64,000 nt of DNA from a plasmid. Every line of letters begins with the position of its first letter. Position 1 is the stretch's first letter. Below the pieces are notes generated by a model. The model had not been told where the DNA came from and did no database searches. It was given only the letters and a program-made list of their open reading frames with translations. This document shows, piece by piece, positions 6,382 through 56,350 of this stretch. The stretch lies in sequence record NZ_CP014093.1. One strand, 5' to 3'. Both the position numbers and the translations under genes were made by a program.

Positions 6382-7560
6382 TCAAGCGGCTAACGCCGAC
6401 TCTCCACAGGCTAACAAGCGGTGTCCCCGCTCTAAAATATTTAATGCGCCAACAATATCTGCATTGTTGGTGTAACCACACTTAATACACTCAAAATGAG
6501 ATTGAGTTTTACGGTTATCTTTCGATACATGACTGCAACAAGGGCAGGTTTGGCTTGTGTATTGCGCTGGCACAGCGACAACTAAACCACCATTCCATAA
6601 TTGCTTGTACTCTAGTTGTCTTCTGAACTCATACCAACCCTGATCAAGTATTGATTTGTTCAGCCCTGACTTAGCTTTCACGTTTTTACCGTGCTTTTCT
6701 GCATTGCCTTTTGCTGACTTAGACATGTTTGATACACGTAAGTCCTCAATCACTATCATCGCGTGGTTCTTGCTGATTTGATGTGAGGCTTTATGTAAGT
6801 AGTCCTTGCGACAATTCGCAATGAGAGTGTGTAGCTTTTGAATTTTGGCTTTCTGTTTCTGCCAGTTAGCAGAAAACTTAACCTTTCTTGATAGCTTGCG
6901 CTGTTCGACAGCTAAGCGCTTTTCATGCTTACGGAATGCGTTAAGCGGTTTTAGATATGAGCCGTCTGACAATGTGACTAACTTGGCAACACCCATATCA
7001 ATACCAACGGCAGAGCTAGAGGTATGCTTAGGTTCATCAATTTCTTGCTCAACTTGGAACGAGATATACCAGTGACCAGACTTAAAACTAACAGTACAGT
7101 TCTTAATGTTGCCTTGTACTTCTTGTGATTTGCGAAACTTCAGCCAGCCAAGCTTGCTCGGTAGCTTTACACGCTTACCATCTAGTTCGCAGTATTTGTT
7201 GAAGTTAACAAAGCGCACTGAATCTTGGTTTTTGCCTTTATTTTTAAATCTAGGCTTATCAGCAGCTAATGACTTGTCGAAGCATCGCATCCAAGCCGTA
7301 TGAAGGTCTTTGAGCTTTTGCTGTAGATTGTCAGTGTATGCCTCTTTGAGCCAAGCAAGATCGTCTTCTTTCTTCCATTGCGTGAGTTGCTTACACAGTT
7401 CAGCGTAGTTCGGGATCTTCTCGCCAGAGTCCAACTTGTTTAAGCAGTGGCGCAAGCCTTGATTCCACACAAATCGAGCATGACCGCAAAGCACAGCAAG
7501 TCTAGCCGCTTGGGTAGCGGTAGGCTCTAACCGAAATTTGTATGCTTTGCGTATTAACAT
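6382..7560 (-). CDS. tnpB: TnpB (IS605 OrfB family, RuvC-like plus C-terminal Zn finger)
   Basis: 392 aa; C-terminal CPCCSHV...ECIKCGYTNNADIVGALNI block typical of TnpB. Confidence 0.85.
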   Translation of the reverse strand: MLIRKAYKFRLEPTATQAARLAVLCGHARFVWNQGLRHCLNKLDSGEKIPNYAELCKQLTQWKKEDDLAWLKEAYTDNLQQKLKDLHTAWMRCFDKSLAADKPRFKNKGKNQDSVRFVNFNKYCELDGKRVKLPSKLGWLKFRKSQEVQGNIKNCTVSFKSGHWYISFQVEQEIDEPKHTSSSAVGIDMGVAKLVTLSDGSYLKPLNAFRKHEKRLAVEQRKLSRKVKFSANWQKQKAKIQKLHTLIANCRKDYLHKASHQISKNHAMIVIEDLRVSNMSKSAKGNAEKHGKNVKAKSGLNKSILDQGWYEFRRQLEYKQLWNGGLVVAVPAQYTSQTCPCCSHVSKDNRKTQSHFECIKCGYTNNADIVGALNILERGHRLLACGESALAA

Positions 7561-7624
7561 GACAATCAGTGTGAATCTTGATAATGTATTTATATTATCA
7601 ACTTACATACAAAAGACAATATCA

Positions 7625-8035
7625 GTGTGCGATAATTTTAATAAGGGCAGGCATAGTTGTTATTCACTGCATTTACATATCGTTTTCGTGACAAAATACA
7701 GAAAGAAAGTGTTTGGAGATTTGCATCTACAAAGTCTTGAGGCGACTTTCAGGGAGCTTTGTTTGGGCTTTGATGCGGAGCTAAAGGAATTTAACGGAGA
7801 GCCTGACCATGTTCATTTGCTAATATCAACATCTCCGAATACACCTAGCGTTGCAAAATTGGTGAACTCGTTAAAAGCAACCAGTTCACGCAGGATTCGC
7901 AGGGAATTTAATGATGTAGCAGGAGCGTTTGGTAAGAATGTGCTTTGGAGTCGGTCTTACTTTGCTGGAACATGTGGAGGTGCGCCACTAACTGTTATTC
8001 GTCAGTACATCGAGCAACAGGATAGACCGCATTAA
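7625..8035 (+). CDS. tnpA: IS200-type Y1 transposase TnpA (probable GTG start)
   Basis: YSLHLHIVFVTKYRKKVF...HVHLLIS (HuH motif)...LWSRSYFAGTCGGA; ~136 aa from an in-frame GTG. Confidence 0.75.
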   Translation: MCDNFNKGRHSCYSLHLHIVFVTKYRKKVFGDLHLQSLEATFRELCLGFDAELKEFNGEPDHVHLLISTSPNTPSVAKLVNSLKATSSRRIRREFNDVAGAFGKNVLWSRSYFAGTCGGAPLTVIRQYIEQQDRPH

Positions 8036-8154
8036 GGCGCTATCGCACCTTTGGCTATTCCCCTCCCTGTTCTTTCGCAGGGAGCACCTAGCCATTAAAG
8101 GTGGTACTACTATGCGGAACACATCCATAGGTAACTCGATGATCAGAGTAACTT

Positions 8155-8598
8155 TTATGTGGTGAAGCACTGCTGGTTTGGGTTACGTAGTTCAATGATG
8201 GTATTACTTTGATCAACACGGTTAAATGCCTCATCACTTATATTTGCGTGATCAAAATCAGTACGAAATAGATCCGCACGATACAAATCGACCTTACTCA
8301 TTTGTGCATAACTCATGTCTGCGTTTCTCAAATCCGCATCGCGGAACGTTGCGTTGTTCAGGTTAGCGTGACTGAAATTGGCATAAGTAATGTCAGCCTC
8401 ATTCATATTCGTACCTGATAAATTGGCGCCACTGAAGTTGGTGCGGGTGAGATTGGCGCAACGCAAATCAGCATTTTTAATTGTACGATTGCTTAGGTCG
8501 GCATTACATAATTGTGCACGCTCACCGCCTTGCTTGTCTAACCACAGTTTGTGTTGCTCAAGAACTGAATCAAGCTCTTGTTGAGTGTATGTATTCAT
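8155..8598 (-). CDS. pentapeptide-repeat protein
   Basis: tandem A(D/N)L(S/R)xA(N/D)L pentapeptides across most of the 147 aa. Confidence 0.75.
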   Translation of the reverse strand: MNTYTQQELDSVLEQHKLWLDKQGGERAQLCNADLSNRTIKNADLRCANLTRTNFSGANLSGTNMNEADITYANFSHANLNNATFRDADLRNADMSYAQMSKVDLYRADLFRTDFDHANISDEAFNRVDQSNTIIELRNPNQQCFTT

Positions 8599-8654
8599 AC
8601 TTCACACCTCTATTCTCATAGGGGATACCAATATTAGGCCCCCTTTATCTTGAT

Positions 8655-9047
8655 TTAGCTAATCTTGCTGTGCCATATCTCGCTATCTGGGCCAATAACA
8701 CATTCGCCGTCTACTCTCATTGATAACCGAATAAGACAGCGTTTGGCCACTTCCTTGAAATCGTCTTCGGGTAAATGTCTTACCGAGTCGACCAAGGCTT
8801 GACAATGCGGGGCGGTTTGCTCTTTTAAAGTGTAGAAAACCCATTTCCCCTTTTTCTCGTGGTTCAGGAGGCCAGCTTTGTAAAGTATTTTAAGATTACG
8901 AGATACGTTGTATTGAGTTTCACCAATGATGTCCATTGCTTCAGCTACTGCCATGCATTCATCAACATGCAGGAACAACCAGAACAATCGCAATCGATTT
9001 GGTTCTGATAAGGCTTTTAACGAATCAATGTATTTTTCATCCATCAT
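8655..9047 (-). CDS. ArsR/SmtB-family transcriptional regulator
   Basis: LSEPNRLRLFWLL...AEAM...QYNVSRNLKILYKAGLL winged-HTH pattern. Confidence 0.7.
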   Translation of the reverse strand: MMDEKYIDSLKALSEPNRLRLFWLFLHVDECMAVAEAMDIIGETQYNVSRNLKILYKAGLLNHEKKGKWVFYTLKEQTAPHCQALVDSVRHLPEDDFKEVAKRCLIRLSMRVDGECVIGPDSEIWHSKIS

Positions 9048-9122
9048 GGTTTTACCCTTTCAACTGATTGGCGCCACTCTCGATGAGTGGCGCGAGTTTT
9101 ATATTGTTCAGAGTAACCGATT

Positions 9123-10094
9123 TTACACAACGTATTGGAAGATAGCGCCCCCAATGATCGCTGTCGTTAAGACTATCCCTACAAACGCGATTACTGCTTT
9201 TCTTTTTAGAACTGCAGATACTAACGCGATTTCAGGCAAACTGGCACCTGTACCGCCAATAATTAGTGCCAATGCGGCCCCTAAGCCCATTCCTTTAGCT
9301 ATTAACACGTTAAGTAGCGGGATCGCCATCTCGATACGTAGGTAAAGCGGGATACCAATAAATGAAGCCACCACGATAGATTGGAAGCTATCACCACCCA
9401 CATATTTATCTACTAAGTCCGCTGGTAGGTAAACCGCAGAGAATCCGCTGATCGCTGCACCTAACAATACGTATGGGATTATTCGTTTGAATAAAGACCA
9501 AGCTCCAGCCATTGCATTGCGCGGTCTTGAGGTAGAAGAAAGTGCTGCGCCACAAGTAGAAGTGTTGCTGCCGCATCCTTTACTTTTGTTGTCTTCTAAT
9601 TCATCGGCACGCTTGATTTCATTTTTCCAAGGCGACTTGGAGATCACGTAGCCACCCAATACCGCAGCGGTGAACGTCACCAAGAAGTACACCACAGTGA
9701 TCTTTAATCCGAAAGTGGCATACACCATCGCTAATACAATGAAGTTACACAATGGTGCAGAAATAATGAAGCTCATTACTGTACCCAAGGATGCGCCCAT
9801 TGATGCCATTGCCATGGTTACAGGAACAACCGCAGCACTACAAAATGGGGTTAACATGCCAAACAGTGCACCCAAAAGGGTTCCCCATTTATCGTGTTTG
9901 GTCAGCGCTGATTGGAGTTTTTTTTGGGGGATGTATTCGCGCATGATGCCGGTTAAAAGTGACACGATGGCGATGATAAGAACTAAGCCTTTCGCTACAT
10001 AAAAGAACTCGTTGAACGCAATAAGTAATTTAGTATCCAAAATTGTAATCTCTAGCAAGTAAAAAGAGATTTTGGATAATATCCATACATGCAC
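9123..10094 (-). CDS. ArsP-like (DUF318) membrane permease
   Basis: multi-TM protein with a TPFCSAAVVP motif resembling the TPFCSC(S) motif of ArsP-type permeases; arsR-like regulator immediately downstream. Confidence 0.6.
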   Translation of the reverse strand: MHVWILSKISFYLLEITILDTKLLIAFNEFFYVAKGLVLIIAIVSLLTGIMREYIPQKKLQSALTKHDKWGTLLGALFGMLTPFCSAAVVPVTMAMASMGASLGTVMSFIISAPLCNFIVLAMVYATFGLKITVVYFLVTFTAAVLGGYVISKSPWKNEIKRADELEDNKSKGCGSNTSTCGAALSSTSRPRNAMAGAWSLFKRIIPYVLLGAAISGFSAVYLPADLVDKYVGGDSFQSIVVASFIGIPLYLRIEMAIPLLNVLIAKGMGLGAALALIIGGTGASLPEIALVSAVLKRKAVIAFVGIVLTTAIIGGAIFQYVV

Positions 10095-10536
10095 GATTGT
10101 GCAAGTGTGTATATTATTTTATTAGTCGTTAGAGATCGATAGGCTTGCTTATGACCTATAGTTTATTGTCGAAAGATATTTATTAAGTATTGGAAAAAGT
10201 ATGGGCGTTTCAGATCACGGCATGCTCAATATTTGCCCATAGAAAGACCTTGTCTTCAATAGATAATCCCTAAACACAGTCTACACCAACGACATGTCTG
10301 GACAGGGCATCATATCTTGAAGAGAGCGGCATTGAGTTGTTAAAACAATGGTGGGCGATGACAAATGTCAGTCATAGTGCGCGTTGGTATGTGGATTTGG
10401 AGAGTACAGCGAGAGTCGATCAGCATCATAATATTGAAAGGCGGAGAAGTAGACTTTGCGTTCATATTTCTTGATAATCAGCTGCTTGGTTAGTCAGTTT
10501 GATCCCAGAAGGCGAAGTTAGTTAGAACGCTCAGGC

Positions 10537-10806
10537 ATGAAAAAGTGCTATATTGAATACATCACATCTTCACGCCCCCACAAAAGGAATTATACTATGC
10601 CGACCTACCAGGTCACTTACTTCAACGCGAAACACGCCGTAATGGATAGCGAATCTATATTCATGAAAAGTCTAACCAACGCAAAGCGTTCCGCAGAGCA
10701 TCATGCACCAGAGGGTACTGACCAAATTGAAATCAAAGATTTAATGGATAAAGTTCTGACTCGATTGATGCTTGAACAAGGCTGGGTTGATAACATCGAA
10801 GACTGA
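10537..10806 (+). CDS. hypothetical small protein (likely start at the internal Met, MPTYQVTYF...)
   Basis: ORF only. Confidence 0.3.
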   Translation: MKKCYIEYITSSRPHKRNYTMPTYQVTYFNAKHAVMDSESIFMKSLTNAKRSAEHHAPEGTDQIEIKDLMDKVLTRLMLEQGWVDNIED

Positions 10807-19590: not shown

Positions 19591-19790
19591 AAAATGAAAA
19601 TAGAGGTCAAAGAAGCTGGTATTTTACCTAGTAAGAACATGGTTTTTTAGTACATCATTTTTTACCTATTTTCTGGTAACAGACCAAGAAATACCAATAT
19701 TATTTTAGATTATTTTTTAGAGTCATCGGGCTGATTATTAAAATTAAACAAAAAAGACCTCGACTAACGAAGAGATCTTTTAAATAATTC

Positions 19791-20003
19791 TTATACTAAA
19801 GTAACGTTGTCAGCTTGTGGGCCTTTGTTACCTTGTTCAACATTAAAAGAAACCTTTTGGCCTTCAGATAATGTTTTGAAACCTTCTTCAACAATTGATC
19901 TGAAATGAACGAATAGGTCAGTACCACCGTCATCTGGAGTGATGAATCCAAAACCTTTAGTTTCATTAAACCATTTTACTGATCCAGTTGTTTTATTTGA
20001 CAT
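19791..20003 (-). CDS. cold-shock protein paralog (CspA family)
   Basis: [14 protein letters not shown]...DLFVHFRSI...[18 protein letters not shown]; start likely at the internal (G/A)TG preceding SNKTTG. Confidence 0.85.
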
Positions 20004-20298
20004 AATATATCTCGACACATTGAATTAATAAAAAAGAAAGCTACTAAATAAGGAATGAAGAAAAAGGTATCGCAGGATAGATATGACGAACTTAATCGAA
20101 TAAAAACTGAGAAGATCTTGAACTAAATGTATTATCAATAGCTCACTGTTTGAGCTTCAGATACTATACACTATGTGTAAATAATAGATATGCATTTCTT
20201 GATTAAAATTTTATTATCTATTAAATCAATCACTTACAGGTAGGGGCATAGTAAAAAAATGGTACGTCAGATTAAAATCTACGGTATCATTAGAGTAA

Positions 20299-20499
20299 TT
20301 ATTGCAAACAGATATTCGATACAACAATGAAGCCTGTTTTTAACTTTGAAAGAGGCATAAACAAGTCAACACGATAAAGGAAAAGAGTTCGGATGAAAAT
20401 AAGGAAGTGACAAAGGCCATAATTGACAGAACTGTTTTCAAAAAAAACCATAATCAGGAATAATAGAAGGAAAGTAACAGCTAGCACCGTAGTGATCAA
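20299..20499 (-). CDS. hypothetical small hydrophobic protein (AT-rich islet)
   Basis: ORF only. Confidence 0.2.
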   Translation of the reverse strand: MITTVLAVTFLLLFLIMVFFENSSVNYGLCHFLIFIRTLFLYRVDLFMPLSKLKTGFIVVSNICLQ

Positions 20500-20563: not shown

Positions 20564-20748
20564 TTACGTCTGGGCTAGATTCTTTTCAGTCCAGATTGAT
20601 TTCCCATCCTCTAATGTTTCTATTGGCATTCTGCCACAGCACATTTTTCCTTGATAAGTACGATGATTTTTGTAGTCCATCCATTCGTCCAGATCTTTTT
20701 GTAACTCCTCCATCGAACCATACAGTTTTTTCTGAACGTTATTTGTCG
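20564..20748 (-). pseudogene. C-terminal ~55-codon remnant of a DDE (rve-type) transposase, immediately 3' of the intron
   Basis: SMEELQKDLDEWMDYKNHRTYQGK...GRMPIETL resembles the C-terminal YNxxRPHxxLgxxTP region of IS3/IS481-type transposases; no N-terminal part anywhere nearby. Confidence 0.4.
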
Positions 20749-20784
20749 GATAGGCGACACCTGTTACCAGATGCCGCCCTCCTA

Positions 20785-20819
20785 AGAACCGTACGTGCAA
20801 CTTTCACTGCATACGGCTC
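20785..20819 (-). ncRNA. group II intron catalytic domain V
   Basis: 34-nt hairpin with AGC triad and GAAA tetraloop, matching the canonical DV consensus. Confidence 0.8.
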
Positions 20820-20854
20820 AAGCCTCCACTAAGGCGTTATTGTAACCCAGCAAC

Positions 20855-22231: not shown

Positions 22232-23171
22232 CTGGATGCCTTAACACATGGCGCTCAACCGCTTTCCAGTCGATGGATTGCCATTGGGCGCTGCCAGAAG
22301 GGGCACTCACTTCATGAGAAGAGATCATCTGCGTTCCTTCTTAAATAAAGTTTTCCAAATCATCTTGCAATGGGAGACCAGTTGGAAGTGGGCACACTTT
22401 CGTGTCAGACATCCGTCTGTATCTGCAGCATTCGCTTTTTCCAACCTCCGTTACCAGCACCGCTATCGGCTCTCTTCACAGACAGCTTTCCCGAAGGAAC
22501 GATACTGGCTTACCGTGTTCCGCATGTCGCGCAATATCAGGGTAGATGTCCACTATAATGCGGGGAGCCTGTCGATCACGAAAGAGCACTGTCCAACCTC
22601 TTTCCTACTCCCTTAGCCGTTTGGCTACAGCGTATTAACCACTTCCGCTGCTTCACGCATAACGCACCTTACATGGATTCACTTTCATTCATCATACTGA
22701 TTCTCTAGCACTCACCCAATTCGTGGTTATCAGGAGGAGCATCCCCTCACGGTTTTGCTCCCGTTTGGCACAATTCCAAACTTCGTTACATTGTCAGGCT
22801 CGCTGCTTTATTCAGAGCCTTAGGGTCGTCTGGTGATACAAACGGTTCACTCTTATCGCGGTGAACAGAGCTTCATGCGACTTCACGTCGCACGGACAGA
22901 AACGTGTCATGCGTTTCGCTAAATTAGCAGCACATAAATTACTTGAAGTATTGCGTATCTTGCAAACCTGTTAGCCCAATTACCTCATGCTCGACACTAA
23001 CTCAATCATGAAACCACGCTAGATGCTTGGTCACGCGACCGTTTAATCAAAACAACATCTCTAGATGTTCGATTATTGATAGCTGATAATCTATTAAAAA
23101 CCTCTAGATGCGGATGGGTATGACTCAATAAACGAGGTGCGATCATCATACACAACTAACTCCGTCCCCCT

Positions 23172-48612: not shown

Positions 48613-49110
48613 ATGGCCGGAGCATTTAACGCAAAAGGCGATATGAATTTCTTAAAACAGAAATTCACTAAGAACGTCCAAGCTGGCGAAAAGATGATGG
48701 GTACAGAGTTCGAGATGAAAATCGAAGAATACCCTAATCTTAGCGTTTTGGTGCGTTCTACTCAGTTTCCAGCAATGGGTCGTGCAGACGTAGAAGATTT
48801 TGGCCAAATGGGCTTGGGCTACATCCAAAATGGTGCGCTTGAGAACAAAGGCGAAATCGCGGTGACGTGCGTAGAAACGATCACAGGTACAGTGCTAGAA
48901 ATGCTACGTGAGATCGTTCGTGAAAAGAAAATGGTCACTGTCGTTATCGAGTCTACGCCTGAATCAACTAAGGGTAAGGGTGCAACCTCGCATCGATTCC
49001 GCTTGGAGCACGTAAAAGTACGTTCAGACGTGATCGACCTATCGACAGAAGATTCAGCAGCACTTGTTAAGCCAGCTATCACACTGCAATACAACTGGGT
49101 AGATTTCTAA
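48613..49110 (+). CDS. candidate tail tube-like protein (165 aa)
   Basis: size and position after the sheath-like gene; weak similarity only. Confidence 0.3.
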   Translation: MAGAFNAKGDMNFLKQKFTKNVQAGEKMMGTEFEMKIEEYPNLSVLVRSTQFPAMGRADVEDFGQMGLGYIQNGALENKGEIAVTCVETITGTVLEMLREIVREKKMVTVVIESTPESTKGKGATSHRFRLEHVKVRSDVIDLSTEDSAALVKPAITLQYNWVDF

Positions 49111-49139
49111 TCGCCAACCAGTCCTATTCTATTCCCTAC

Positions 49140-49168
49140 AAAAAGGCCGCCAGTTTGGCGGCTTTTTT
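49140..49168. terminator. bidirectional terminator between convergent structural gene and fic
   Basis: aaaaaggccgccagtttggcggcttttttg. Confidence 0.6.
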
Positions 49169-49175
49169 GATGCTC

Positions 49176-50507
49176 TTAAGCTTTGGTTAGCCTATCTTTC
49201 AAGTCGGCTGGTGCAATGTAGGTGTTCTCGTTGCCATCCTTTGATTTGAACAGCAATTTCAGCTCCACCAGCTTCTCAAGATACTTGCGCGCAGAGGTAT
49301 GAGACACGTCAAAATCAGACTGAATTTCCTTAACTGAAAAGACACGTCCGGCTGTTTCTAATCCCTTGGCCAGAATCACAATGTGCGGCAGTTTCAACGC
49401 GCCCTTAAGCTTGGAGTCGTCTAGCAGTTCGCGCACCTCTCTCGTATCTTCAATCTTAGACTTGATGTACTCGTTAAAGCGCTCAATCGCATTGATGATG
49501 ACCGTTAGCTGGTAGTCCACAAAGTGCGTTAAGTCATTGTCGTCCGTTTCGGTGTAAACGTAGCTTCTAACGTACTTGGTTGGCGCGCTCTTAAGAGGTG
49601 CAGAGATCGAGACGTACTTAAAGTTTTCATAACCATGCTTAAGGATGAACCAGTAGAAAAGCGCCCTAGCCGTTCTTCCGTTTCCGTCCATGAATGGGTG
49701 AATGTAGCCAATCATAAAGTGCAGAATACAAGCCTTAACGATTGGATTAATAAAATTGGTGCTGGTGGTATGGTCGGTGTTGGCGAAGTCACATAGTTGC
49801 TCAATGAGCTTCAAAACGTGCTCATGTTCTGGCGCTTCGTGAATAATATCGCCAGTGGCCACGTCTCTAACCATGACCGCATCCGTTCTGTATTGGCCAG
49901 CAACGTGCTCATTCTCTAACACGCCATTGGTGGCTATTTCATTAAATCCGCTAATCAATTCCGGTGTGAGCTCTACATCCTTGAAATCGTCAGCCATCAT
50001 GATCAAATGCCAGTTATTGATAATCATCCGTTCGGAGTCATCTTGCGGCTCACGTTCTGTTTCAAGCATTTCCTTGGCCACCTTGCGCGTTGTGGCAGCT
50101 CCCTCCAATTGGGCGCTGTTAATGGCTTCTTCCATAATCACGCTTTTCACTAGGTGTGCCTTTTTGTCTTGAGCAGATAGCGGCAAATCTTCTAGTTTGA
50201 GCTGTTTATCGATGCGGAATAGCTTAGCGTCGAGACTGGCGGCACTAAGCTTGAATGGATTGCCGTTTTCATCAACAAGCGAAATGTCGTTAAGGCCACG
50301 TCTAATTTTTAGGGCATGCCAAGCGTAGCTCTTTTGGTCGCCTTTAAACTCTTTTGAACGGTACTGAAAGTCATTCCAATGCAAGTAGTTACCGCTACTA
50401 TCAAACCCGTATTTAATTGGGTCTAGCTTGTCGATTAACTCTACTACTTTTATAAAATCAGTAGGTTTTGCTGGTGGGATGCTAACTCCCGCAATCTTTT
50501 GGCTCAT
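49176..50507 (-). CDS. Fic-family protein (AMPylator/Doc fold) with a C-terminal winged-helix region
   Basis: canonical Fic motif HPFMDGNGRTARAL (HPFx[DE]GNGRxxR). Confidence 0.85.
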   Translation of the reverse strand: MSQKIAGVSIPPAKPTDFIKVVELIDKLDPIKYGFDSSGNYLHWNDFQYRSKEFKGDQKSYAWHALKIRRGLNDISLVDENGNPFKLSAASLDAKLFRIDKQLKLEDLPLSAQDKKAHLVKSVIMEEAINSAQLEGAATTRKVAKEMLETEREPQDDSERMIINNWHLIMMADDFKDVELTPELISGFNEIATNGVLENEHVAGQYRTDAVMVRDVATGDIIHEAPEHEHVLKLIEQLCDFANTDHTTSTNFINPIVKACILHFMIGYIHPFMDGNGRTARALFYWFILKHGYENFKYVSISAPLKSAPTKYVRSYVYTETDDNDLTHFVDYQLTVIINAIERFNEYIKSKIEDTREVRELLDDSKLKGALKLPHIVILAKGLETAGRVFSVKEIQSDFDVSHTSARKYLEKLVELKLLFKSKDGNENTYIAPADLKDRLTKA

Positions 50508-50765
50508 GCCGTGAAACTTTTTTAAAATGTTTAATACATCCAGTATTGCACACAGGCAGTGGGAGTCAATCGCTTATCTATCTACGAGTTGCAAGGGGTG
50601 TAATGCTTTGCTGAATACTTTCAATAGTACAGTTGCTCCCTTAACTGCCATCCCGATCGATCAATATTTTATGCCAGTGACCAACAACTGTCGGTAGACA
50701 TTAAAGTTCAAAACCTTTCGAATAGTTGGCTTTTCAGTAAGTCACTCTCAAATTCACTTCGTAAC

Positions 50766-50788
50766 ACTCATAAGTGCCCCATTATTGG
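50766..50788 (+). repeat. 23-bp direct repeat, copy 1 (actcataagtgccccattattgg)
   Basis: 21/23 identical to copy 2 at 54033-54055. Confidence 0.5.
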
Positions 50789-50957
50789 TAGACCTTTTAC
50801 TCATTCACATCCTTTTCATGGGTTTTCCCCTACAAAAATTTATCCATTCTTCTAGTGGTGTTCGTTTGTAAATCCCCGTGTATTACGGGGGTAAATTCCA
50901 CAATAGATTAAGGTGTAGCGAGTATGAACTAATTATACGGGTTTTAGATATGCAACA

Positions 50958-51479
50958 TTGTTATTGAGCGGAGAAAGTGGCAATCTATCAACAAGCGATA
51001 CATCCATCTCGCGCATAAATTTTAAGAAGTCTAAGGAGACAGTTTTGCAATCACGGATATCCATCCCAACAGATAATATATATAAGTTCTATGCCACGTT
51101 TGGACTTGTGCTTCTAATTTCAACCATGGCACTTTTTGTATTTGTTTACTCGACATTCCAGGCTAACTCTCATGCTCGTTACGTCGAACTTAAGGTACTT
51201 GCTTCTATGTCAGAGTTAACACCCGAGCAGTCGGCACGAAAGGACATTTTAGAGGCAAAAGAAGTAATCGACACTTCAGATAAAAAAACTTATATGGACG
51301 TGATTGCTTTCTTGTTGGCATCGTCACTCTTTTTACTAGCTTTCGGGTTTAATCGTTGGCATAAAAAAATTCAACCTTTACAGGATGAAATATTATTGAA
51401 ACAAAAAGAAAAAACTGAGCTAGAGATTAAATTTCTCAATAAACAGATGAATTCTTCCCGCATCAAGCGAGAAAAATAA
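50958..51479 (+). CDS. membrane protein (2 TM) in an AT-rich insertion
   Basis: hydrophobic segments; low GC. Confidence 0.35.
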   Translation: MLLSGESGNLSTSDTSISRINFKKSKETVLQSRISIPTDNIYKFYATFGLVLLISTMALFVFVYSTFQANSHARYVELKVLASMSELTPEQSARKDILEAKEVIDTSDKKTYMDVIAFLLASSLFLLAFGFNRWHKKIQPLQDEILLKQKEKTELEIKFLNKQMNSSRIKREK

Positions 51480-51550
51480 AATACTAGCAGTTGCTATTTT
51501 TAATGTTTTTAACGCATTTAATTCTCATGGAATATAGATATAAAGTTAAA

Positions 51551-52342
51551 ATGAGCAAAATATTTCATATAAATCATAAGGTGTCCGCATTCAAAAATGT
51601 GACTTTTTGGTTATTTCTATTAACACCTATGGTATCTGGACTTATACTTGGTTCTTTTGTCTGGTCTCCTTATAGCTTAGGTTTTGATAATCTAAGTTAT
51701 AAGTTTTTTTTGGACGTTAGCAAACTACCCTTAGGAATTATGGGATTATCGTTTCCCATAGTCGGTATTTACATGTTTCAGTTTAGAACGAAACAAGCAT
51801 CTGAGCTTTATCTAGTAAGTAGAAAGCGAGATATAGAAACTAATAAAGATAAATATTTAGATTCACTGATAGCTATGAGTTTAATTGTGTCTAGACTCAA
51901 TAATCACTTGCATGGTTTAGAGCAAGTTTTAAAAGTCAACTCATTAAGTTATGAGGAACTAACGGATAGGTTTAATAAAATTTATTCATTATGGGAAAGT
52001 GTTTTTTGCGACTCATTGTATACTTTTGCTTTGTCTCGTTTGAATCAGGAAATTAAGAAAGCAGATGCTTTATTTTTGGGAGCAAGCTTAGACCTTACAC
52101 TTAACAGAGCAGAAAGGTTTAGGCCTGGCTACTATTCTAACATTATAAATGAGTTGCATTTAATACATTTAAAGATATGTAAAGATGCATCTCACTGCAA
52201 ATGTGCATCGTTACAAGAAATATATACTGAGCAATCGCTATGTGGCTTGCCCTCAAATGATACTTTACGTGACCTAAACAATGAATTTGAAATAATAAAT
52301 GAATATGATGAGAAAATAAAAAATATTGAAAATAATAAGTAA
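51551..52342 (+). CDS. membrane-anchored protein (2 N-terminal TM plus ~200-aa cytoplasmic domain) in an AT-rich insertion
   Basis: start taken at MSKIFHIN; hydrophobic N-terminus; low GC. Confidence 0.35.
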   Translation: MSKIFHINHKVSAFKNVTFWLFLLTPMVSGLILGSFVWSPYSLGFDNLSYKFFLDVSKLPLGIMGLSFPIVGIYMFQFRTKQASELYLVSRKRDIETNKDKYLDSLIAMSLIVSRLNNHLHGLEQVLKVNSLSYEELTDRFNKIYSLWESVFCDSLYTFALSRLNQEIKKADALFLGASLDLTLNRAERFRPGYYSNIINELHLIHLKICKDASHCKCASLQEIYTEQSLCGLPSNDTLRDLNNEFEIINEYDEKIKNIENNK

Positions 52343-52411
52343 CGCATCTGCGTTAATATTTATTAGTAGGGCTCTTATGGTGATCCCTATTTAGATTAAA
52401 TAAAACTTCGT

Positions 52412-52792
52412 TTACACCATATTTTTTAACACTCGAGCATATTTGAGGATTTGATGAGCAACCTTTATATCATTCGATGCACCTAACTCAAGTAAAGCAA
52501 CCCCAATCAAGACTTGCTGCGCAGTAACCAACTGTCCTGTTGGCAGCTCTAATCGATCATGCCTCATTACGAAGTTTTTCCAATCTTCACAAGAGCTCAA
52601 TTCCCTCCCTTTATTCATCCTCATCAAGCGTTTACACTCTGGAGGAATTGATTTCCCCTTGTCCCATTCTTTGACCGTTCTCACAGTTTTTAAACAAGGT
52701 TTGGCAGCTTCTTCGACGGTTAAACCACATTCAAATTCACGAAAAATATAGTTTTTAGTCATTTCGTGATACTTCATTGAATTGTCCCTCAA
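52412..52792 (-). CDS. small HTH DNA-binding protein (phage regulatory type)
   Basis: GLTVEEAAKPCLKTVRTVKEWDKGKSIP helix-turn-helix pattern. Confidence 0.4.
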   Translation of the reverse strand: MRDNSMKYHEMTKNYIFREFECGLTVEEAAKPCLKTVRTVKEWDKGKSIPPECKRLMRMNKGRELSSCEDWKNFVMRHDRLELPTGQLVTAQQVLIGVALLELGASNDIKVAHQILKYARVLKNMV

Positions 52793-53271
52793 AAGAGAGA
52801 CATTTTATAGGATACGCATATGCAATCGCATTCAACATAAGCGCCCAAAGTGCGTACTATACGAAAGCTTATTAACTGGCAATATTTGACTTACAAAGAG
52901 TTATTAATGAATTGCTAATCTTCGATTTTTCGTAACGCATTTTTATCCAGAAGTGTGCTGACGGATCGTGTAACACAAAAATGCCCCAAACCTTGCTAGC
53001 AATGATGATTCGTTCAATCTCATCATGGAAGTTTGAACTAGATTTTGTTATCCAAGTGATGCCTCAAGGTATGGGTTTTGTTAGTTTGACTAATGAGTTA
53101 GTATGAGATAAATTGTTAAATTAAGGCTGGATGGAAGCCTGCTCACTCCAATAAGGCAAACTCTTTCGAGAACCATAATCCTAAATTATATATTTTTTTC
53201 TTATTTATTTCGGCGGGAAGAAGAAAATTAGGAGTGGATTTACTTAGCTTTTCGTCTAGGTATATAAGATC

Positions 53272-53985
53272 ATGAATATTACTCAATCTTTCATTTCAAA
53301 TGTCAAGAAATTAGCTAAAAAGATTCAAGTTGAACTAGGTGTTAAGCACACCCAAGCACTTGAATTAGCAGCACGAGAAGTTGGCTTCCCTAACTACCAT
53401 TCACTATTACAGCATTCGAAAAAAGCTAACAATCATAGAGCTAATATAGTTAATGCAAATAAAGGTATGGATGGGGTTAACCAAGAGTTCGCTATGGCTC
53501 AGGGGAATAGAGGTAAACAGCTTAATCCAAATCAAAACAGCTCTCTATTGGTTATATTTGATGATGATTTGATGGTAAATGAGCTAGAGTATGAAGGCAC
53601 CACTCCCAAACTTATTAGACGTAACTTTAAGGCCGAGTATCTCGATAAAGGCTTTGCAACCGATATAGGTGCAAGGATACTAAGTTTCGCTGAAGTTAAA
53701 CACCGTGACTTGGATATAGGCTATGGTTCGCAATTACACCAGTGGGGATACATCTGTGTTGAGTTCTTACGAAACAGAAACAATCCTTGGACTATTGAAG
53801 ACGCTAATGAAATTGCGAAAGAGCGCATAGGTTCGAAATTTGGCTCTTGCTACCGTGAATTCTTTTTCATCGATGGAGAATATGTAAATAACCATGTCTA
53901 TGATGAAAGAACTACAGCATTAGACCTCGAAAACGATAGACAGTACCATCCAGCAATCGATGGCTATCATGACAACTATAGCTAA
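53272..53985 (+). CDS. hypothetical protein (237 aa)
   Basis: ORF only. Confidence 0.35.
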   Translation: MNITQSFISNVKKLAKKIQVELGVKHTQALELAAREVGFPNYHSLLQHSKKANNHRANIVNANKGMDGVNQEFAMAQGNRGKQLNPNQNSSLLVIFDDDLMVNELEYEGTTPKLIRRNFKAEYLDKGFATDIGARILSFAEVKHRDLDIGYGSQLHQWGYICVEFLRNRNNPWTIEDANEIAKERIGSKFGSCYREFFFIDGEYVNNHVYDERTTALDLENDRQYHPAIDGYHDNYS

Positions 53986-54032
53986 GTGTTAACTTAACTA
54001 GTCCACTTTGAGTCAGTTGTTCTTCCTAGCTG

Positions 54033-54055
54033 ACTCATCATTGCCCCATTATTGG
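54033..54055 (+). repeat. 23-bp direct repeat, copy 2 (actcatcattgccccattattgg)
   Basis: see copy 1. Confidence 0.5.
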
Positions 54056-54363
54056 TTTCGCCAAAAAGCTCACGCACTCGGTCGGGCAAATTTCGACCAA
54101 ACATAACTAATCTGACACCCAAAACTCACAAAGAGCAAAAATGGGTGTCATTGTACTGCTCTTGGCTCAAATGAATGTACGAATTTTTAGCCTGTAAATC
54201 GCTCTGAAAGCGTCACAAACTTATGATTGCCTTGAACAAGAGTTCAAAGTCCTCGCATAGAGCGCTTGAGGTGCTTCTAAGTGGTGTTTTTGATAGCGAA
54301 CTCGCCCGTTTAACATTATGGGAATAATGAACACCGATTTTAGGTATAGCTAAGGCCCCCCCC

Positions 54364-54924
54364 CTAGTTCCAAGCGTTTAGTAAATCTGTGTATGAAGAT
54401 TGGTCTACGTGGCCTGATGCTAGTGAAGCATCAAGCGAAAGATGATATGCCTCATGAAAGCCTGATGTTGGAAAACTGTTGCCATCAACCTTGAGGTAGC
54501 CAGCCTGAATTATAGCCTTTACTTGATCGGCACTTAGACTAAGCATTTTAAGTTTGCCTATAGAGTTACCATTACTGTGGCATTTTTCTGCTGCCTTTAG
54601 CCATTTACCATTTAACCTTAACGCAGTGTCATGTAATTCCTTATCATCACATAAAAAACCAAATGAATAAGCACTAGTCGCTATAGTGAAAAATGCTTTA
54701 GAACCTTTATGAAAGCTTATCTTAGCTGTGATAACGGTTGTATTGCTTACGGTGCCATAATTATCTGTTTTATCCGTAGAGGTTAACATATTGTACTCAG
54801 AATCAAGAACCCAACGCCAAGATTGATTTGACATATCGTAGACACTGTCCTGAGTGTTCGGAACAGAGCAGCCAGTAAGTAGAATGCCTAGTGTGGTGAC
54901 TGTTATTATTGATTTTAATTTCAT
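54364..54924 (-). CDS. lipoprotein
   Basis: signal peptide with lipobox LLTGCS. Confidence 0.5.
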   Translation of the reverse strand: MKLKSIITVTTLGILLTGCSVPNTQDSVYDMSNQSWRWVLDSEYNMLTSTDKTDNYGTVSNTTVITAKISFHKGSKAFFTIATSAYSFGFLCDDKELHDTALRLNGKWLKAAEKCHSNGNSIGKLKMLSLSADQVKAIIQAGYLKVDGNSFPTSGFHEAYHLSLDASLASGHVDQSSYTDLLNAWN

Positions 54925-55004
54925 GTGTATCCCAAGCGATATTATGTACCGTGTACTTTGATGAGTAGTTCGTTATTAACCTGTTGTTATGTTAGTGGTT
55001 AAAG

Positions 55005-55358
55005 TTATACCTCTAACTTCTCTATCAATGCATGCGCAACTCGATATACATCTGATAGGTAGTGAGCTACGCAGATTTTTACATACTCTCGATCATCGTA
55101 GTCTCGACAAATTTGGGGGGCGAGTTCAACTTCAAAATCGTGAGTTAAGCTCATTGCCGTATCAATTAAATGTTGGGGTTTTTCGAAAGCTTTAACCGCA
55201 CCAAAGTCTTCACCAACTGTCGCCGTCATAATTTCATATGACGACTCTTCCCCTAAGATACGCAACAATACTTGGTCTTGGTATACCACAATAAACTTTT
55301 CTGCTGCTTCTAAACAACGTTTATCTGATTTTCTGATATCAAAAATTGCTTCTTTCAT
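55005..55358 (-). CDS. hypothetical protein (117 aa)
   Basis: ORF only. Confidence 0.3.
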   Translation of the reverse strand: MKEAIFDIRKSDKRCLEAAEKFIVVYQDQVLLRILGEESSYEIMTATVGEDFGAVKAFEKPQHLIDTAMSLTHDFEVELAPQICRDYDDREYVKICVAHYLSDVYRVAHALIEKLEV

Positions 55359-55789
55359 CTATAACATCTCTGAAAAGATAACTAGCCTGTAGGATTTCTC
55401 AGTCGCCATTTTCTAACCGTCTTCTACATTAAAGTGTCAAACAGAATGGGCCTCAAACCTATCTAGATTTCACGCAGAAACGCGTTTTTTCATTTAAAAT
55501 CGCTTTCATTTAGTCCCGTAAGACTTGTAATCCGCACATAAACCAATCTTTCTGTTAGTGCGATTTTACTCATCGCACTGGCTCGTAACAACTAGCTTTG
55601 TCATACCTGTAGTTATCCATGAATTGCTAATTTAGGGGAAGCGCTAGCACGTTTATGTCCAAAAGTGAGTTTCGGTCTTTGTTGTCCATCGACAATAACA
55701 AAGTTTAAATCGCGTGCCTGATTGGTTTGAGTTAAGATTCACCAAGCCTATCCCCTATCTCAAAATGCGCCGCCACTACCGGAGCGGCC

Positions 55790-56350
55790 ATGACACCGAT
55801 TGAACTACTCGAAGACGTGAAAGCGAGATTCCCTATCTTGCTACACGACGACAAAAAGGCGCTGTTAAGCCTACTGCGTAAAGCGCTGGCCAAGTACCAA
55901 GAGATTGCCGGATTTACCACTAAAACCCGCATCCAACAAAGCGACTTAGCCGATAACAATCAGTTTGAATTACCGTCCGACTTTGCTGCAAGGTTGGTGG
56001 TCAAAGATGACCGTGGCCGTTATGTGCGTAGCGAGGTTTGGGGCAACGTTCTTGAACTGAAATTAACGGGCGCAGAAACATTCCCACTGACATTGATGTA
56101 CATGCAAAACGTACTCAATGAGCCGTTTGATTCATTCCAGCTTCCAACGCCGTGCATTAGCTTGCTTGGCGATTATCTGGAATTGCTGATCACTATCCCG
56201 AACGCAGAGCGTCAACGCCGGATTGCCATCGCTGGCAAGTTAGATGTGACCGATATCGCTACCGAACCTGACCTAGCCGCACGTAAAGCCGAGATTGAAA
56301 ACTCAATGCGCACGAACCGTGCCATTGTTCCACCAGTATCGTTGCTCTAA
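55790..56350 (+). CDS. candidate head-tail connector/adaptor protein (gp6-like)
   Basis: N-terminus MTPIELLEDVKARFPILLHDDKKALLSLLRKALAKYQEIAGF resembles the MLTLEEAKAHLRVDHDDEDALIESLIAAAREYAE... opening of HK97 gp6-type adaptors. Confidence 0.35.
   Translation: MTPIELLEDVKARFPILLHDDKKALLSLLRKALAKYQEIAGFTTKTRIQQSDLADNNQFELPSDFAARLVVKDDRGRYVRSEVWGNVLELKLTGAETFPLTLMYMQNVLNEPFDSFQLPTPCISLLGDYLELLITIPNAERQRRIAIAGKLDVTDIATEPDLAARKAEIENSMRTNRAIVPPVSLL

What the first reader, a model, noticed from the sequence alone, without database searches (positions are those of the whole stretch)
49111..55789. A ~6.5-kb accessory island sits inside the phage structural operon; it carries a Fic protein and an AT-rich insertion of ~3.2 kb bounded by 23-bp direct repeats.
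Island position and content:
- The tube-like gene at 48613..49110 and the connector, tube and tape-measure genes from 55790 onward are separated by unrelated, low-GC DNA.
- That DNA holds a Fic gene (HPFMDGNGRTAR motif), a lipoprotein and two small hypotheticals.

Repeat-bounded segment:
- Nearly identical 23-bp direct repeats (actcat[a/c]a[g/t]tgccccattattgg) lie at 50766-50788 and 54033-54055.
- They bracket a strongly AT-rich segment encoding two membrane-anchored proteins, a divergently oriented small HTH regulator and a 237-aa protein of unknown function.

Interpretation:
- The layout of cargo islands in prophage late regions with flanking direct repeats is typical of recombination-mediated moron or defence hotspots.
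- None of the four repeat-bounded proteins shows a motif I can place.
- This makes the set a candidate novel superinfection-exclusion or abortive-infection module.
Basis: partly seen in the sequence, partly recalled or inferred. Interest (0 to 1): 0.7.

Follow-up and report, generated by a model that had tools for sequence, protein, structure and literature searches.

The report
Filamentous-phage relic inside a phage-plasmid hotspot
The AT-rich "insertion" in the tail-gene cluster of this Vibrio P1-like phage-plasmid is not one new defence module but a patchwork: the leftover end of a filamentous phage that entered through the host's Xer recombinases, plus an independently mobile one-gene cassette, all sitting in a cargo hotspot that holds different defence or toxin-antitoxin genes in related plasmids.

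Summary
The ORFs, the GC dip, the Fic gene and the 24-bp direct repeat (22/24; 0 of 200 shuffles) are all there.

- **Hotspot:** related Vibrio plasmids keep the Fic gene but carry different cargo between Fic and the PmgC-like gene.
- **Not one element:** the repeat-bounded 3.27 kb is a mosaic of two parts.
- **Part 1, 50879-52776:** 98.8% identical to filamentous phage VALGΦ6. It holds two accessory membrane-protein genes and the "HTH regulator". That protein belongs to the f237 ORF9 family, a sub-threshold match to the XafT Xer-activation factor.
- **Attachment site, 52830-52858:** 58/58 identical to the VfO3K6 attP through the XerD arm and central region. It switches at the XerC arm to plasmid-type sequence, as expected of a hybrid integration junction. 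Phage core genes are absent.
- **Part 2, 52989-54048:** the 237-aa gene lies in a 1,060-bp cassette found with identical TGCCCCA-bounded ends in other plasmids and chromosomes.
- **The repeats:** they are copies of a conserved junction motif, not a target duplication.
- **Function:** a defence role for the cargo is plausible but untested.

The parts
48613..49110 (+). Tail tube gene (P1 gene 21-like). Last backbone gene left of the accessory region.
   Evidence: phrog_1120 tail tube protein, 1.4e-57. Conserved in all related plasmids.
49176..50507 (-). Fic-domain protein (SoFic-like), opposite strand. Conserved accessory gene of the plasmid family, not variable cargo.
   Evidence: Pfam Fic 6.8e-18. 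PADLOC SoFic 1.2e-42. phrog_5978 2.9e-102. Present at this place in all six relatives fetched: five at 94-96% nt, and L005 at only 72%.
50766..50789 (+). Left copy of the 24-bp direct repeat (ACTCATAAGTGCCCCATTATTGGT). Contains the TGCCCCA junction core at 50775-50781.
   Evidence: Homology to plasmid 2439-01 ends at 50781 and to pMBL128 at 50769. The same motif occurs in pAM7, V. lentus p1 and the 2439-01 plasmid.
50782..50900 (+). Non-coding 'leader' with a hairpin (CCCCG 50874-50878 / CGGGG 50886-50890). It overlaps the start of VALG_phi6 homology.
   Evidence: 90.6% identical to V. rotiferianus pAM7 next to a Xer core plus Y element. 78% identical to V. rhodolitus upstream of an OLD/GajA-like ATPase.
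50879..52776 (+). Segment 98.8% identical to filamentous Vibrio phage VALG_phi6 (record positions 1898 to 1): the zot-xafT hypervariable region plus most of xafT.
   Evidence: Megablast. VALG_phi6 annotation.
51045..51479 (+). Inovirus accessory gene 1: small membrane protein. 144 aa as annotated in VALG_phi6; the ORF can extend back to 50958 (173 aa).
   Evidence: phrog_19745 3e-15. 97.9% aa identity to VALGphi6_00030, and 28% identity to ORF20 at the accessory end of Pseudomonas Pf-like inoviruses.
51551..52342 (+). Inovirus accessory gene 2: 263-aa protein (283 aa from 51491) with N-terminal transmembrane helices. Function unknown.
   Evidence: Only 3 homologue clusters in 5.8 billion proteins. 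Homologues sit beside GmrSD/WYL genes (L022) and in a cassette-like array with toxin-antitoxin and acetyltransferase genes (L025). Structure model unusable, pLDDT 46.
52412..52792 (-). XafT-like gene (f237 ORF9 / Vpf121 family).
   Evidence: phrog_1668 2.5e-61. NCBIfam NF040522 'VC1465 family Xer recombination activation factor' 9.9e-12, 44.9 bits, below the cutoff of 70. All 20 family members tested hit only this model. 88-96% nt identity to Vibrio inoviruses.
52830..52858 (+). S1: hybrid Xer attachment site ATTCAACATAA-GCGCCCA-AAGTGCGTACT (XerD arm, 7-bp centre, XerC arm).
   Evidence: Best dif-like score in the whole window. Window 52790-52847 is 58/58 identical to the VfO3K6 attP region, and identity is lost from the XerC arm onward. 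The XerC arm resembles plasmid Y-type cores.
52859..52988 (+). D element: Y-type plasmid accessory sequence next to the XerC arm. It ends in TGCCCCA (52982-52988).
   Evidence: Aligns to pAM7, V. lentus p1 and the window's own Y element. The same xafT-S1-D block is present in IMG/VR contig L033 (93%) and, more decayed, in V. campbellii plasmids.
52989..54048 (+). 1,060-bp cassette carrying the 237-aa gene (53272-53985). It is inserted between D and X and ends in TGCCCCA (54042-54048).
   Evidence: 99% identical, with the same ends, in V. parahaemolyticus CHN25 plasmid P2 and in chromosomal islands L014-L021 with different flanks. V. lentus p1 has D-like and X contiguous, which looks like the empty site.
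54033..54056 (+). Right copy of the 24-bp direct repeat (ACTCATCATTGCCCCATTATTGGT). It spans the cassette end and the start of element X.
54049..54307 (+). X element: conserved non-coding sequence of Vibrio plasmids.
   Evidence: 68-76% identical, always unannotated, in 33 plasmid records.
54308..54335 (+). S2: Xer-type core GTTTAACATTA-TGGGAA-TAATGAACACC.
   Evidence: Second-best dif-like score in the window. Conserved at 84-91% in small true plasmids: NC_021292 (rep, qnrVC5, ParD) and pZF001.
54364..55358 (-). Two small cargo genes between S2 and S3: lipoprotein (54364-54924, 186 aa) and a 117-aa protein (55005-55358).
   Evidence: lipobox LTGC. No family hits. No tblastn match in plasmids. 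The same X...core+Y frame holds other cargo in V. lentus, V. crassostreae, V. cyclitrophicus and V. campbellii plasmids.
55514..55665 (+). S3: degenerate Xer core (55514-55541; XerC arm 9/11, XerD arm 5/11) followed by the Y accessory element (55542-55665).
   Evidence: Alignment to the pAM7 and V. lentus cores ATTTAACGTAA-CGTCACT-TAGTGCGCACC plus Y.
55790..56350 (+). PmgC-like gene. First backbone gene right of the hotspot.
   Evidence: phrog_1851 3.8e-70. Homology to relatives resumes at 55603-55710.

Best explanation
**Setting.** The window comes from a Vibrio (V. alginolyticus-type) phage-plasmid with P1-like tail genes. Between the tube gene plus a conserved Fic gene on one side and the PmgC-like gene on the other lies a cargo hotspot. 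In this plasmid the hotspot contains Xer recombination cores with conserved plasmid-type flanking elements (X, Y).

**Proposed history.**
1. A CTX-I type filamentous phage close to VALGΦ6/VfO3K6 integrated by XerCD recombination into a plasmid Y-type Xer site.
2. The surviving right junction (S1) joins the phage XerD arm and central region to a plasmid XerC arm and its accessory element. This is shown by sequence.
3. The phage core, from rstR to zot, was later lost. What remains is the hypervariable-region cargo (two membrane proteins), an intact xafT-like gene and the junction. The loss is inferred.
4. Independently, a 1,060-bp one-gene cassette (237 aa) was inserted at a TGCCCCA core between the D and X elements. 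The insertion is shown by an empty-site comparison and by the same cassette in other contexts. Its recombinase is unknown.

The 24-bp repeat is the conserved motif ACTCAnnnnTGCCCCATTATTGG that marks such junctions.

**Cargo function.** Anti-phage or exclusion activity of the two inovirus membrane proteins, and SoFic-like defence by Fic, is inferred from context only.
For: **Hotspot**
- Six related plasmids share the flanks at 94-98% identity but carry different cargo.
- Some of that cargo matches PADLOC defence models.

**Inovirus origin**
- Window 50879-52776 is 98.8% identical to VALG_phi6.
- Gene order and strands match the published zot-pHVR-xafT-attP layout of CTX-I inoviruses (PMC12715192).

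**XafT-like gene**
- NF040522 E 1e-11, and 20/20 family members hit only this model.
- The gene lies 38 bp from the XerD arm, as in TLCΦ (PMC6744903).

**Hybrid junction**
- S1 and S2 are the two best dif-like sites in 64 kb.
- Identity to the VfO3K6 attP is 58/58 up to the end of the central region, then switches to a plasmid-type XerC arm plus a Y-like element.
- The same block recurs in another phage-plasmid (L033) and in V. campbellii plasmids.

**Cassette**
-.
- TGCCCCA is enriched in the island: 3 observed against 0.12 expected, P = 0.0004.

**Repeat motif elsewhere**
-.

**Precedent**
- Degraded CTX-I relics that retain the hypervariable region are described in PMC12715192.
Against: - No left junction (attL) or any phage core gene is present, so integration followed by deletion is inferred from one junction only.
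- The first base of the S1 XerC arm (A) matches neither the phage site nor the plasmid cores examined (T).
- The XafT assignment is below NCBIfam's curated cutoff, and Pfam DUF3653 gives no hit.
- S3 has a poor XerD arm.
- The conserved flank of S2 lies on the XerD side, unlike ColE1 cer (my recollection of cer geometry).
- Related plasmids L002-L005 show no Xer core in their version of the hotspot at the thresholds used. The Xer locus may therefore itself be cargo rather than the cause of the hotspot.
- Homologous recombination among the conserved X/Y elements could produce parts of the mosaic without Xer.
- No functional evidence exists for any cargo gene.
Confidence: 0.72

Rival explanations
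1. First reader's model. A single ~3.2-kb AT-rich element was inserted by recombination, bounded by its 23/24-bp direct repeats. It carries a four-gene novel superinfection-exclusion or abortive-infection module with its own HTH regulator.
For: - The repeat is real and non-random.
- GC is low across the segment.
- The position is a hotspot rich in defence and toxin-antitoxin cargo in relatives.
- No known defence family matches the four proteins.
Against: - The segment splits into parts with separate distributions:
  - 50879-52776 occurs in VALG_phi6.
  - 52989-54048 occurs alone in other plasmids and chromosomes.
  - xafT-S1-D occurs without the rest in L033 and L034.
- No record holds the unit as a whole.
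- The repeat motif is present once at comparable junctions in other plasmids.
- The 'regulator' is XafT-like and sits next to an att site.
Confidence: 0.05
2. The segment is a still-mobile mini-IMEX or satellite, like TLCΦ or RS1: cargo plus xafT plus att site, able to excise and reintegrate with host XerCD and to be packaged by a helper inovirus.
For: - The xafT-like ORF is full length, and S1 has intact arms and a 7-bp centre.
- The same block is seen in at least three plasmid backgrounds.
- XafT can drive both integration and excision (PMC6744903).
Against: - No second Xer site bounds the block on its left, even at relaxed thresholds.
- There is no replication initiator (rstA/Cri-like) and no identified packaging signal.
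- The V. campbellii copies are decayed.
Confidence: 0.1
3. The mosaic arose mainly by homologous or microhomology-mediated recombination between conserved non-coding plasmid elements (X, Y, the hairpin leader, the TGCCCCA-containing ends). No Xer-mediated phage integration into the plasmid took place; the phage-like block was copied from a chromosomal dif region.
For: - X and Y elements are shared at 70-90% identity among many Vibrio plasmids.
- Breakpoints to relatives scatter over 50552-50781 and 55603-55710.
- A 21-bp hairpin sequence is shared at the left end of the phage block.
Against: - The switch point at S1 falls exactly at the border between the central region and the XerC arm. That is where Xer strand exchange occurs.
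- The downstream partner is a plasmid-type arm rather than chromosomal dif (ATTTAACATAATATACATAATGCGCACT, as seen in vB_Vipa36).
Confidence: 0.1
4. The region is an integron-like cassette array using attC-type sites.
For: - One-gene units in the same orientation, separated by 130-170-bp repeated elements, occur in L007, L022 and L025.
- The 237-aa cassette has fixed ends in several contexts.
Against: - Cassette borders are TGCCCCA, not G|TTRRRY.
- The repeated elements carry Xer-type cores rather than attC inverted cores.
- No integrase was detected next to the region. A tyrosine recombinase from a plasmid with the same elements has no homologue in the window.
Confidence: 0.03

Closest known systems
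Degraded CTX-I inovirus relics that retain the hypervariable region (pHVR) and xafT (Commun Biol 2025, PMC12715192)
   Same: - Same gene layout: accessory cargo, then a divergently transcribed xafT-like gene, then a dif-like site.
- Phage core genes are lost.
- The cargo region is of typical size (about 1.5-1.9 kb).
   Different: - Those relics were described at chromosomal dif sites. The word 'plasmid' does not occur in that paper.
- Here the junction partner is a plasmid-type Xer core with a Y accessory element, inside the tail-gene cluster of a P1-like phage-plasmid.
Vibrio filamentous phages VALGΦ6 / VfO3K6 / f237 (genus Versovirus)
   Same: - 98.8% nt identity to VALGΦ6 over 1.9 kb.
- attP XerD arm and centre identical to VfO3K6.
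- The xafT-like gene equals f237 ORF9 / Vpf121.
   Different: There is no replication, coat, pIII, Ace or Zot gene and no rstR-side regulator. It cannot be a functional phage.
TLCΦ satellite and its factor XafT (VC1465) of V. cholerae (PMC6744903, PMC9226527)
   Same: A small HTH-type protein is encoded next to the XerD side of a dif-like site, and it matches the VC1465 family model.
   Different: - The match is sub-threshold (44.9 bits against a cutoff of 70).
- There is no Pfam DUF3653 hit.
- There is no TLC replication gene.
- XerD activation is untested.
Plasmid multimer-resolution sites (ColE1 cer, pSC101 psi) and Acinetobacter pdif modules
   Same: - 11-bp arms with 6-7-bp centres, flanked by conserved non-coding sequence shared by unrelated plasmids.
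- Small cargo is framed by Xer-type sites.
   Different: - The sites here are in direct, not inverted, orientation.
- S2 and S3 have different central regions.
- No accessory-protein binding is known.
- Function is untested in Vibrio plasmids.
Defence hotspots of temperate phages and satellites (P2/P4 hotspots; the sim/rlf accessory region near pmgC in P1, cited from memory)
   Same: A fixed position between conserved late genes is filled with different defence or toxin-antitoxin cargo in relatives.
   Different: Part of the cargo here is another phage's remnant, and the locus carries Xer cores that offer a capture mechanism.

Membership tests
CTX-I type inovirus / IMEX (integrative element exploiting Xer) | dif-like attachment site (11-bp XerD arm, 6-8-bp centre, 11-bp XerC arm) at the element's end | tested here: met
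   S1 at 52830-52858. It is the top dif-like score in the window, and its XerD arm and centre are identical to the VfO3K6 attP.
CTX-I type inovirus / IMEX (integrative element exploiting Xer) | xafT-like gene as terminal gene, next to the XerD side of the site and transcribed opposite to zot and the cargo | tested here: met
   ORF 52412-52792(-) lies 38 bp from S1, and the cargo genes are on the + strand. Layout as in PMC12715192.
CTX-I type inovirus / IMEX (integrative element exploiting Xer) | Phage core genes (rstR, replication initiator, ssDNA-binding, coat, pIII, Ace, Zot) | tested here: not met
   Homology to VALG_phi6 stops at record position 1898, before the zot operon. No such ORFs or PHROG hits occur in 49-56 kb. 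It is therefore a relic, not a phage.
CTX-I type inovirus / IMEX (integrative element exploiting Xer) | Second junction (attL) bounding the element | tested here: not met
   No further Xer-type site lies left of 52830 in the island, even at relaxed thresholds.
XafT / VC1465 family (Xer recombination activation factor) | Match to the family profile above the curated threshold | tested here: inconclusive
   NF040522 gives E 9.9e-12 but 44.9 bits against a cutoff of 70. All 20 homologues hit only this model, best E 7.9e-14. Pfam DUF3653 gives no hit. Sources name the family 'phage protein' or 'regulator'.
XafT / VC1465 family (Xer recombination activation factor) | Binds XerD and activates its catalysis independently of FtsK | not testable with these tools
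   This needs pull-down and in vitro recombination assays, as in PMC6744903.
Plasmid Xer multimer-resolution site (cer/psi-like) | XerC/XerD core conserved in unrelated plasmids, with conserved flanking accessory DNA | tested here: met
   The S2 core and its flank are 84-91% conserved in small rep/ParDE plasmids. Y-type cores plus the Y element occur in pAM7 and in V. lentus, V. cyclitrophicus, V. crassostreae and V. campbellii plasmids.
Plasmid Xer multimer-resolution site (cer/psi-like) | Resolves plasmid dimers with accessory proteins | not testable with these tools
   This needs a dimer-resolution assay in xerC/xerD mutants.
   Its parts have separate distributions. No record holds the whole unit. 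The repeat motif occurs as a single copy at junctions elsewhere.
Integron gene cassette | Cassette borders at the G|TTRRRY cores of attC sites, with an IntI integrase | tested here: not met
   The borders are TGCCCCA. No integrase homologue was detected (that was a limited test).
SoFic-type Fic defence protein | Fic motif HxFx(D/E)GNGRxxR and a match to SoFic profiles | tested here: inconclusive
   The motif HPFMDGNGRTAR is present. PADLOC SoFic gives 1.2e-42. The NCBIfam SoFic equivalog model scores only 59 bits against a cutoff of 550. Anti-phage activity is untested.
Phage / phage-plasmid cargo hotspot | Same position between conserved flanks holds unrelated cargo in relatives | tested here: met
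   Six relatives carry six different cargo sets, plus L033.

The most novel reading that the evidence does not exclude
The conserved TGCCCCA-ended Y elements, the X elements and the Xer-type cores may together form an undescribed cassette-exchange system of Vibrionaceae. It would be integron-like in outcome but would use Xer or an unknown recombinase. Such a system would shuttle one- to few-gene cargo, including defence genes, between plasmid resolution loci, the hypervariable regions of filamentous phages and chromosomal islands. The 237-aa cassette and the HNH/PD-(D/E)XK cassette would be its mobile units.
Probability: 0.2. Interest if true: 0.8.

Novelty: new variant of a known kind. Interest (0 to 1): 0.5.

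Why it matters
- **Phage within phage.** A filamentous phage that exploits the host XerCD recombinases appears to have landed in a plasmid-type Xer site carried by another phage, a P1-like phage-plasmid. It then decayed to its accessory cargo plus its recombination factor.
- **A capture mechanism.** If Xer cores on plasmids and phage-plasmids capture such elements, that gives a concrete mechanism for how hotspots in late operons are filled. It also gives a route by which inovirus cargo, including defence or virulence genes, reaches replicons that spread as virions.
- **A caution for annotation.** An AT-rich, repeat-flanked block of "hypothetical" genes need not be one module.
- **An open lead.** The unexplained TGCCCCA junctions are a testable lead to a cassette-exchange process.

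Tried and rejected
- **263-aa protein, structure.** The model built from a 4-sequence alignment had mean pLDDT 45.9 and was not searched.
- **237-aa protein, structure.** The model was usable (pLDDT 76.5).
  - BFVD matched only the first ~46 residues, a small helical domain shared with 'glyoxalase-related' phage proteins.
  - The afdb50 library was unavailable.
- **Family scans.** Pfam, NCBIfam and PADLOC gave nothing significant for the 173-, 263-, 237-, 186- and 117-aa proteins. PHROGs gave only matches to families of unknown function for the 173- and 263-aa proteins (3e-15 and 2.1e-10) and nothing significant for the other three.
- **Lipoprotein.** tblastn found no match in plasmids.
- **Rfam.** No RNA family lies in the island.
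- **Promoter and terminator scans.** Counts were no higher than in shuffles.
- **The 24-bp repeat as a Xer site.** It shows only a CATAA-N8-TTAT resemblance, with about 8 mismatches to the published Vibrio dif motif. Rejected.
- **The repeat as a dispersed repeat.** The exact motif occurs in only 2 of 185,579 species genomes.
- **Integron attC idea.** Rejected because the borders are wrong.
- **Linked recombinase.** The tyrosine recombinase next to the X-Y locus of V. campbellii BoB-90 has no homologue in the window.
- **PHROG label 'tail assembly protein' for phrog_1668.** I rejected it as a mislabel because the family is inovirus f237 ORF9/Vpf121.
- **V. rhodolitus locus with the leader element.** I tested whether it is an inovirus. 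It has no inovirus hits.

Full report
**1. Observation**

- GC drops from about 0.49 to 0.30-0.39 between about 50.5 and 55.5 kb.
- The repeat is 24 nt, 22/24 identical, at 50766-50789 and 54033-54056.
- No pair that good appeared in 200 dinucleotide shuffles of the 8-kb region.
- The flanks are P1-like tail genes: sheath, phrog_1053, PmgG-like and tube on the left; PmgC-like, a second tube protein, PmgB-like and a Sit-like tape-measure/transglycosylase on the right.
- The Fic gene has the canonical motif and matches Pfam Fic and PADLOC SoFic at 1.2e-42.

**2. Context: a hotspot, but Fic is backbone**

- The 15.6 kb around the finding matches circular, non-mobilizable Vibrio plasmids of 93-142 kb (replicon cluster 803; one further record, Isc15A, is 217 kb and linear) at 94-98% identity, in two blocks separated by unrelated DNA.
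- In pMBL128, Isc15A, strain 2-1, SCSIO 43009 and 2439-01 the Fic gene always follows the tube gene.
- Homology to the window ends between 50552 and 50781 and resumes between 55603 and 55710.
- The DNA in between differs in every relative:

| Relative | Cargo at this position |
|---|---|
| pMBL128 | three proteins matching PADLOC Hp1/Hp2/Hp3 |
| Isc15A | HigA plus VapBC |
| strain 2-1 | CsgG/Hpt-type genes |
| SCSIO 43009 | HigBA |
| 2439-01 | HNH plus PD-(D/E)XK nucleases, followed by further genes including a fimbrial chaperone-usher cluster |

The position is therefore a true cargo hotspot of about 5 kb here. It does not include Fic.

**3. The repeat-bounded segment is a mosaic**

*Filamentous-phage remnant*
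- Window 50879-52776 is 98.8% identical to positions 1898-1 of filamentous Vibrio phage VALG_phi6. VALG_phi6 is an active inovirus of V. alginolyticus (PMC7761403).
- That stretch holds the 144/173-aa and 263/283-aa membrane-protein genes and the 126-aa 'HTH regulator'.
- The 126-aa protein:
  - matches phrog_1668 at 2.5e-61;
  - is 88-96% nt identical to the f237 ORF9/Vpf121 gene of many Vibrio inoviruses;
  - matches only NCBIfam NF040522, 'VC1465 family Xer recombination activation factor' (E 1e-11, 44.9 bits, below the cutoff of 70);
  - shares this result with all 20 homologues tested;
  - gives no hit to Pfam DUF3653.
- A 2025 survey calls this terminal gene xafT. It describes CTX-I inoviruses as rstR...zot, then a hypervariable region of about 1.9 kb, then xafT, then attP. 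The hypervariable regions are enriched in defence genes, and decayed relics that keep the hypervariable region are known (PMC12715192).

*Attachment site*
- A scan for dif-like sites gave two clear best hits in the whole 64 kb. Both lie inside the finding and point the same way: S1 at 52830-52858 and S2 at 54308-54335.
- S1 reads ATTCAACATAA-GCGCCCA-AAGTGCGTACT. The attP of VfO3K6 reads ATTCAACATAA-GCGCCCA-TAATGCGCACT.
- The window is 58/58 identical to VfO3K6 from upstream of xafT through the XerD arm and the 7-bp centre. Identity is lost from the XerC arm onward.
- The downstream DNA (D, 52859-52988) is not phage.
  - It aligns to 130-170-bp 'Y' elements. These lie beside Xer cores of the type ATTTAACGTAA-CGTCACT-TAGTGCGCACC in plasmids of V. 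rotiferianus, V. lentus, V. cyclitrophicus, V. crassostreae and V. campbellii.
  - It also aligns to the window's own Y element at 55542-55665, which follows a degenerate core S3.
- A switch exactly at the border of the overlap region is what Xer strand exchange produces. I read S1 as the right junction of an inovirus integrated into a plasmid-type Xer site.
- The same xafT-S1-D block is present at 93% identity in another phage-plasmid (IMG/VR contig, L033) with different neighbours. A more decayed version is in V. campbellii plasmids.
- Everything from rstR to zot is missing, and no left junction was found.

*One-gene cassette*
- Window 52989-54048, carrying the 237-aa gene, is 99% identical to a stretch of V. 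parahaemolyticus CHN25 plasmid P2 and to chromosomal islands of several Vibrio genomes.
- In each case the ends are the same (TGCCCCA|AACCTTGC ... CTGACTCATCAT|TGCCCCA) while at least one flank differs: the left flank is different in all three contexts, and CHN25 P2 and the chromosomal islands share their right flank.
- In V. lentus p1 the D-like and X elements are contiguous across a single ATGCCCCATTATTGG, which looks like the empty site.
- TGCCCCA occurs three times on the + strand of the island, against 0.12 expected (P = 0.0004).
- TGCCCCA also marks other junctions: backbone to cargo in the 2439-01 plasmid, D to cargo in L033, and the ends of Y-like pieces flanking a GmrSD/WYL island in L022.

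*The repeats*
- The left copy lies at the backbone-to-cargo border. The right copy lies at the cassette-to-X border.
- The same motif occurs once at comparable junctions in pAM7, V. lentus p1 and the 2439-01 plasmid.
- It is rare overall: 2 of 185,579 species genomes for the exact pattern.
- It is therefore not a target duplication of a 3.2-kb insertion.

**4. The rest of the island**

- X (54049-54307) and S2 (GTTTAACATTA-TGGGAA-TAATGAACACC) are conserved, unannotated DNA in 33 plasmid records, 31 of them Vibrio. These include small true plasmids with rep and ParDE genes.
- The frame X ... small cargo ... Xer core plus Y recurs with other cargo in several plasmids, for example an α/β hydrolase.
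- Here that frame holds a lipoprotein gene and a 117-aa gene. Neither has a detectable family.
- I take this as the plasmid's Xer (resolution-type) locus, but function is untested.
- Relatives L002-L005 show no core in their hotspot.

**5. Cargo function**

- Nothing could be assigned to the two inovirus membrane proteins or to the 237-aa protein.
- Context hints at defence or exclusion:
  - The genes sit in an inovirus hypervariable region (PMC12715192).
  - Homologues of the 263-aa gene lie beside GmrSD/WYL genes and in toxin-antitoxin-rich arrays.
  - A 28%-identical homologue of the 144-aa gene lies at the accessory end of Pseudomonas Pf phages.
- This is inference only.

**6. Verdict**

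The single-module interpretation is not supported.
- The best explanation is a decayed Xer-exploiting filamentous phage plus an independent cassette, lodged in the Xer-site-bearing cargo hotspot of a P1-like phage-plasmid.
- Each ingredient is known: inovirus relics, XafT-like factors, plasmid Xer sites and phage hotspots.
- The combination, and the plasmid-type junction partner, are a new variant.
- The TGCCCCA junctions remain unexplained and are the most novel lead.

Noticed in passing
window 20745-20821 and 22708-22845 (- strand): Rfam group II intron domains (RF00029 at 64.7 bits; RF02012 at 76.9 bits). This suggests a group II intron elsewhere in the phage-plasmid.
   Followed up: no
window 50775, 52982, 54042; L006 17776 and 20160; L007 6002 and 7062; L022 about 160 and about 9200; L033: A TGCCCCA core recurs at the borders of unrelated cargo and at the outer end of Y-type elements. 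One 1,060-bp cassette has identical ends in three contexts. No recombinase was identified.
   Followed up: partly
L005 (Vibrio sp. SCSIO 43009 plasmid) against window 49000-50552: The Fic allele is only about 72% nt identical, while the neighbouring tail genes are about 97% identical. This suggests allele exchange or fast evolution of Fic.
   Followed up: no
L002 (pMBL128) 6957-9796: The cargo at the same hotspot matches the PADLOC three-gene candidate system Hp1/Hp2/Hp3 (2e-68, 1.8e-43, 4e-5).
   Followed up: partly
L033 (IMGVR_UViG_2579778703_000007) 1793-4195: A related phage-plasmid keeps the xafT-S1-D block but has two cold-shock-domain genes next to it. Parts of that cargo resemble window 10455-10775 and 19735-20358.
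   Followed up: partly
L009, L029, L030, L031, L032 (plasmids of V. lentus, V. cyclitrophicus, V. crassostreae, V. mediterranei, V. campbellii): A recurrent non-coding frame, X element ... small variable cargo ... Y element, appears in unrelated Vibrio plasmids. A Xer-type core (centre CGNCACT) next to Y was detected in four of the five, not in V. mediterranei (L031). It is reminiscent of Acinetobacter pdif modules, but the sites are in direct orientation.
   Followed up: partly
L028 (Pseudomonas phage PfAC01b) 11058-11495: A distant homologue (28% identity) of the 144-aa inovirus membrane protein lies after the integrase gene of Pf-like phages. The same phage carries a retron at its other end.
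   Followed up: no
L027 (V. rhodolitus) about 3700-4270: The non-coding 'leader' that follows the left repeat in the window precedes an OLD/GajA-like ATPase gene in a chromosomal context with no inovirus genes.
   Followed up: partly
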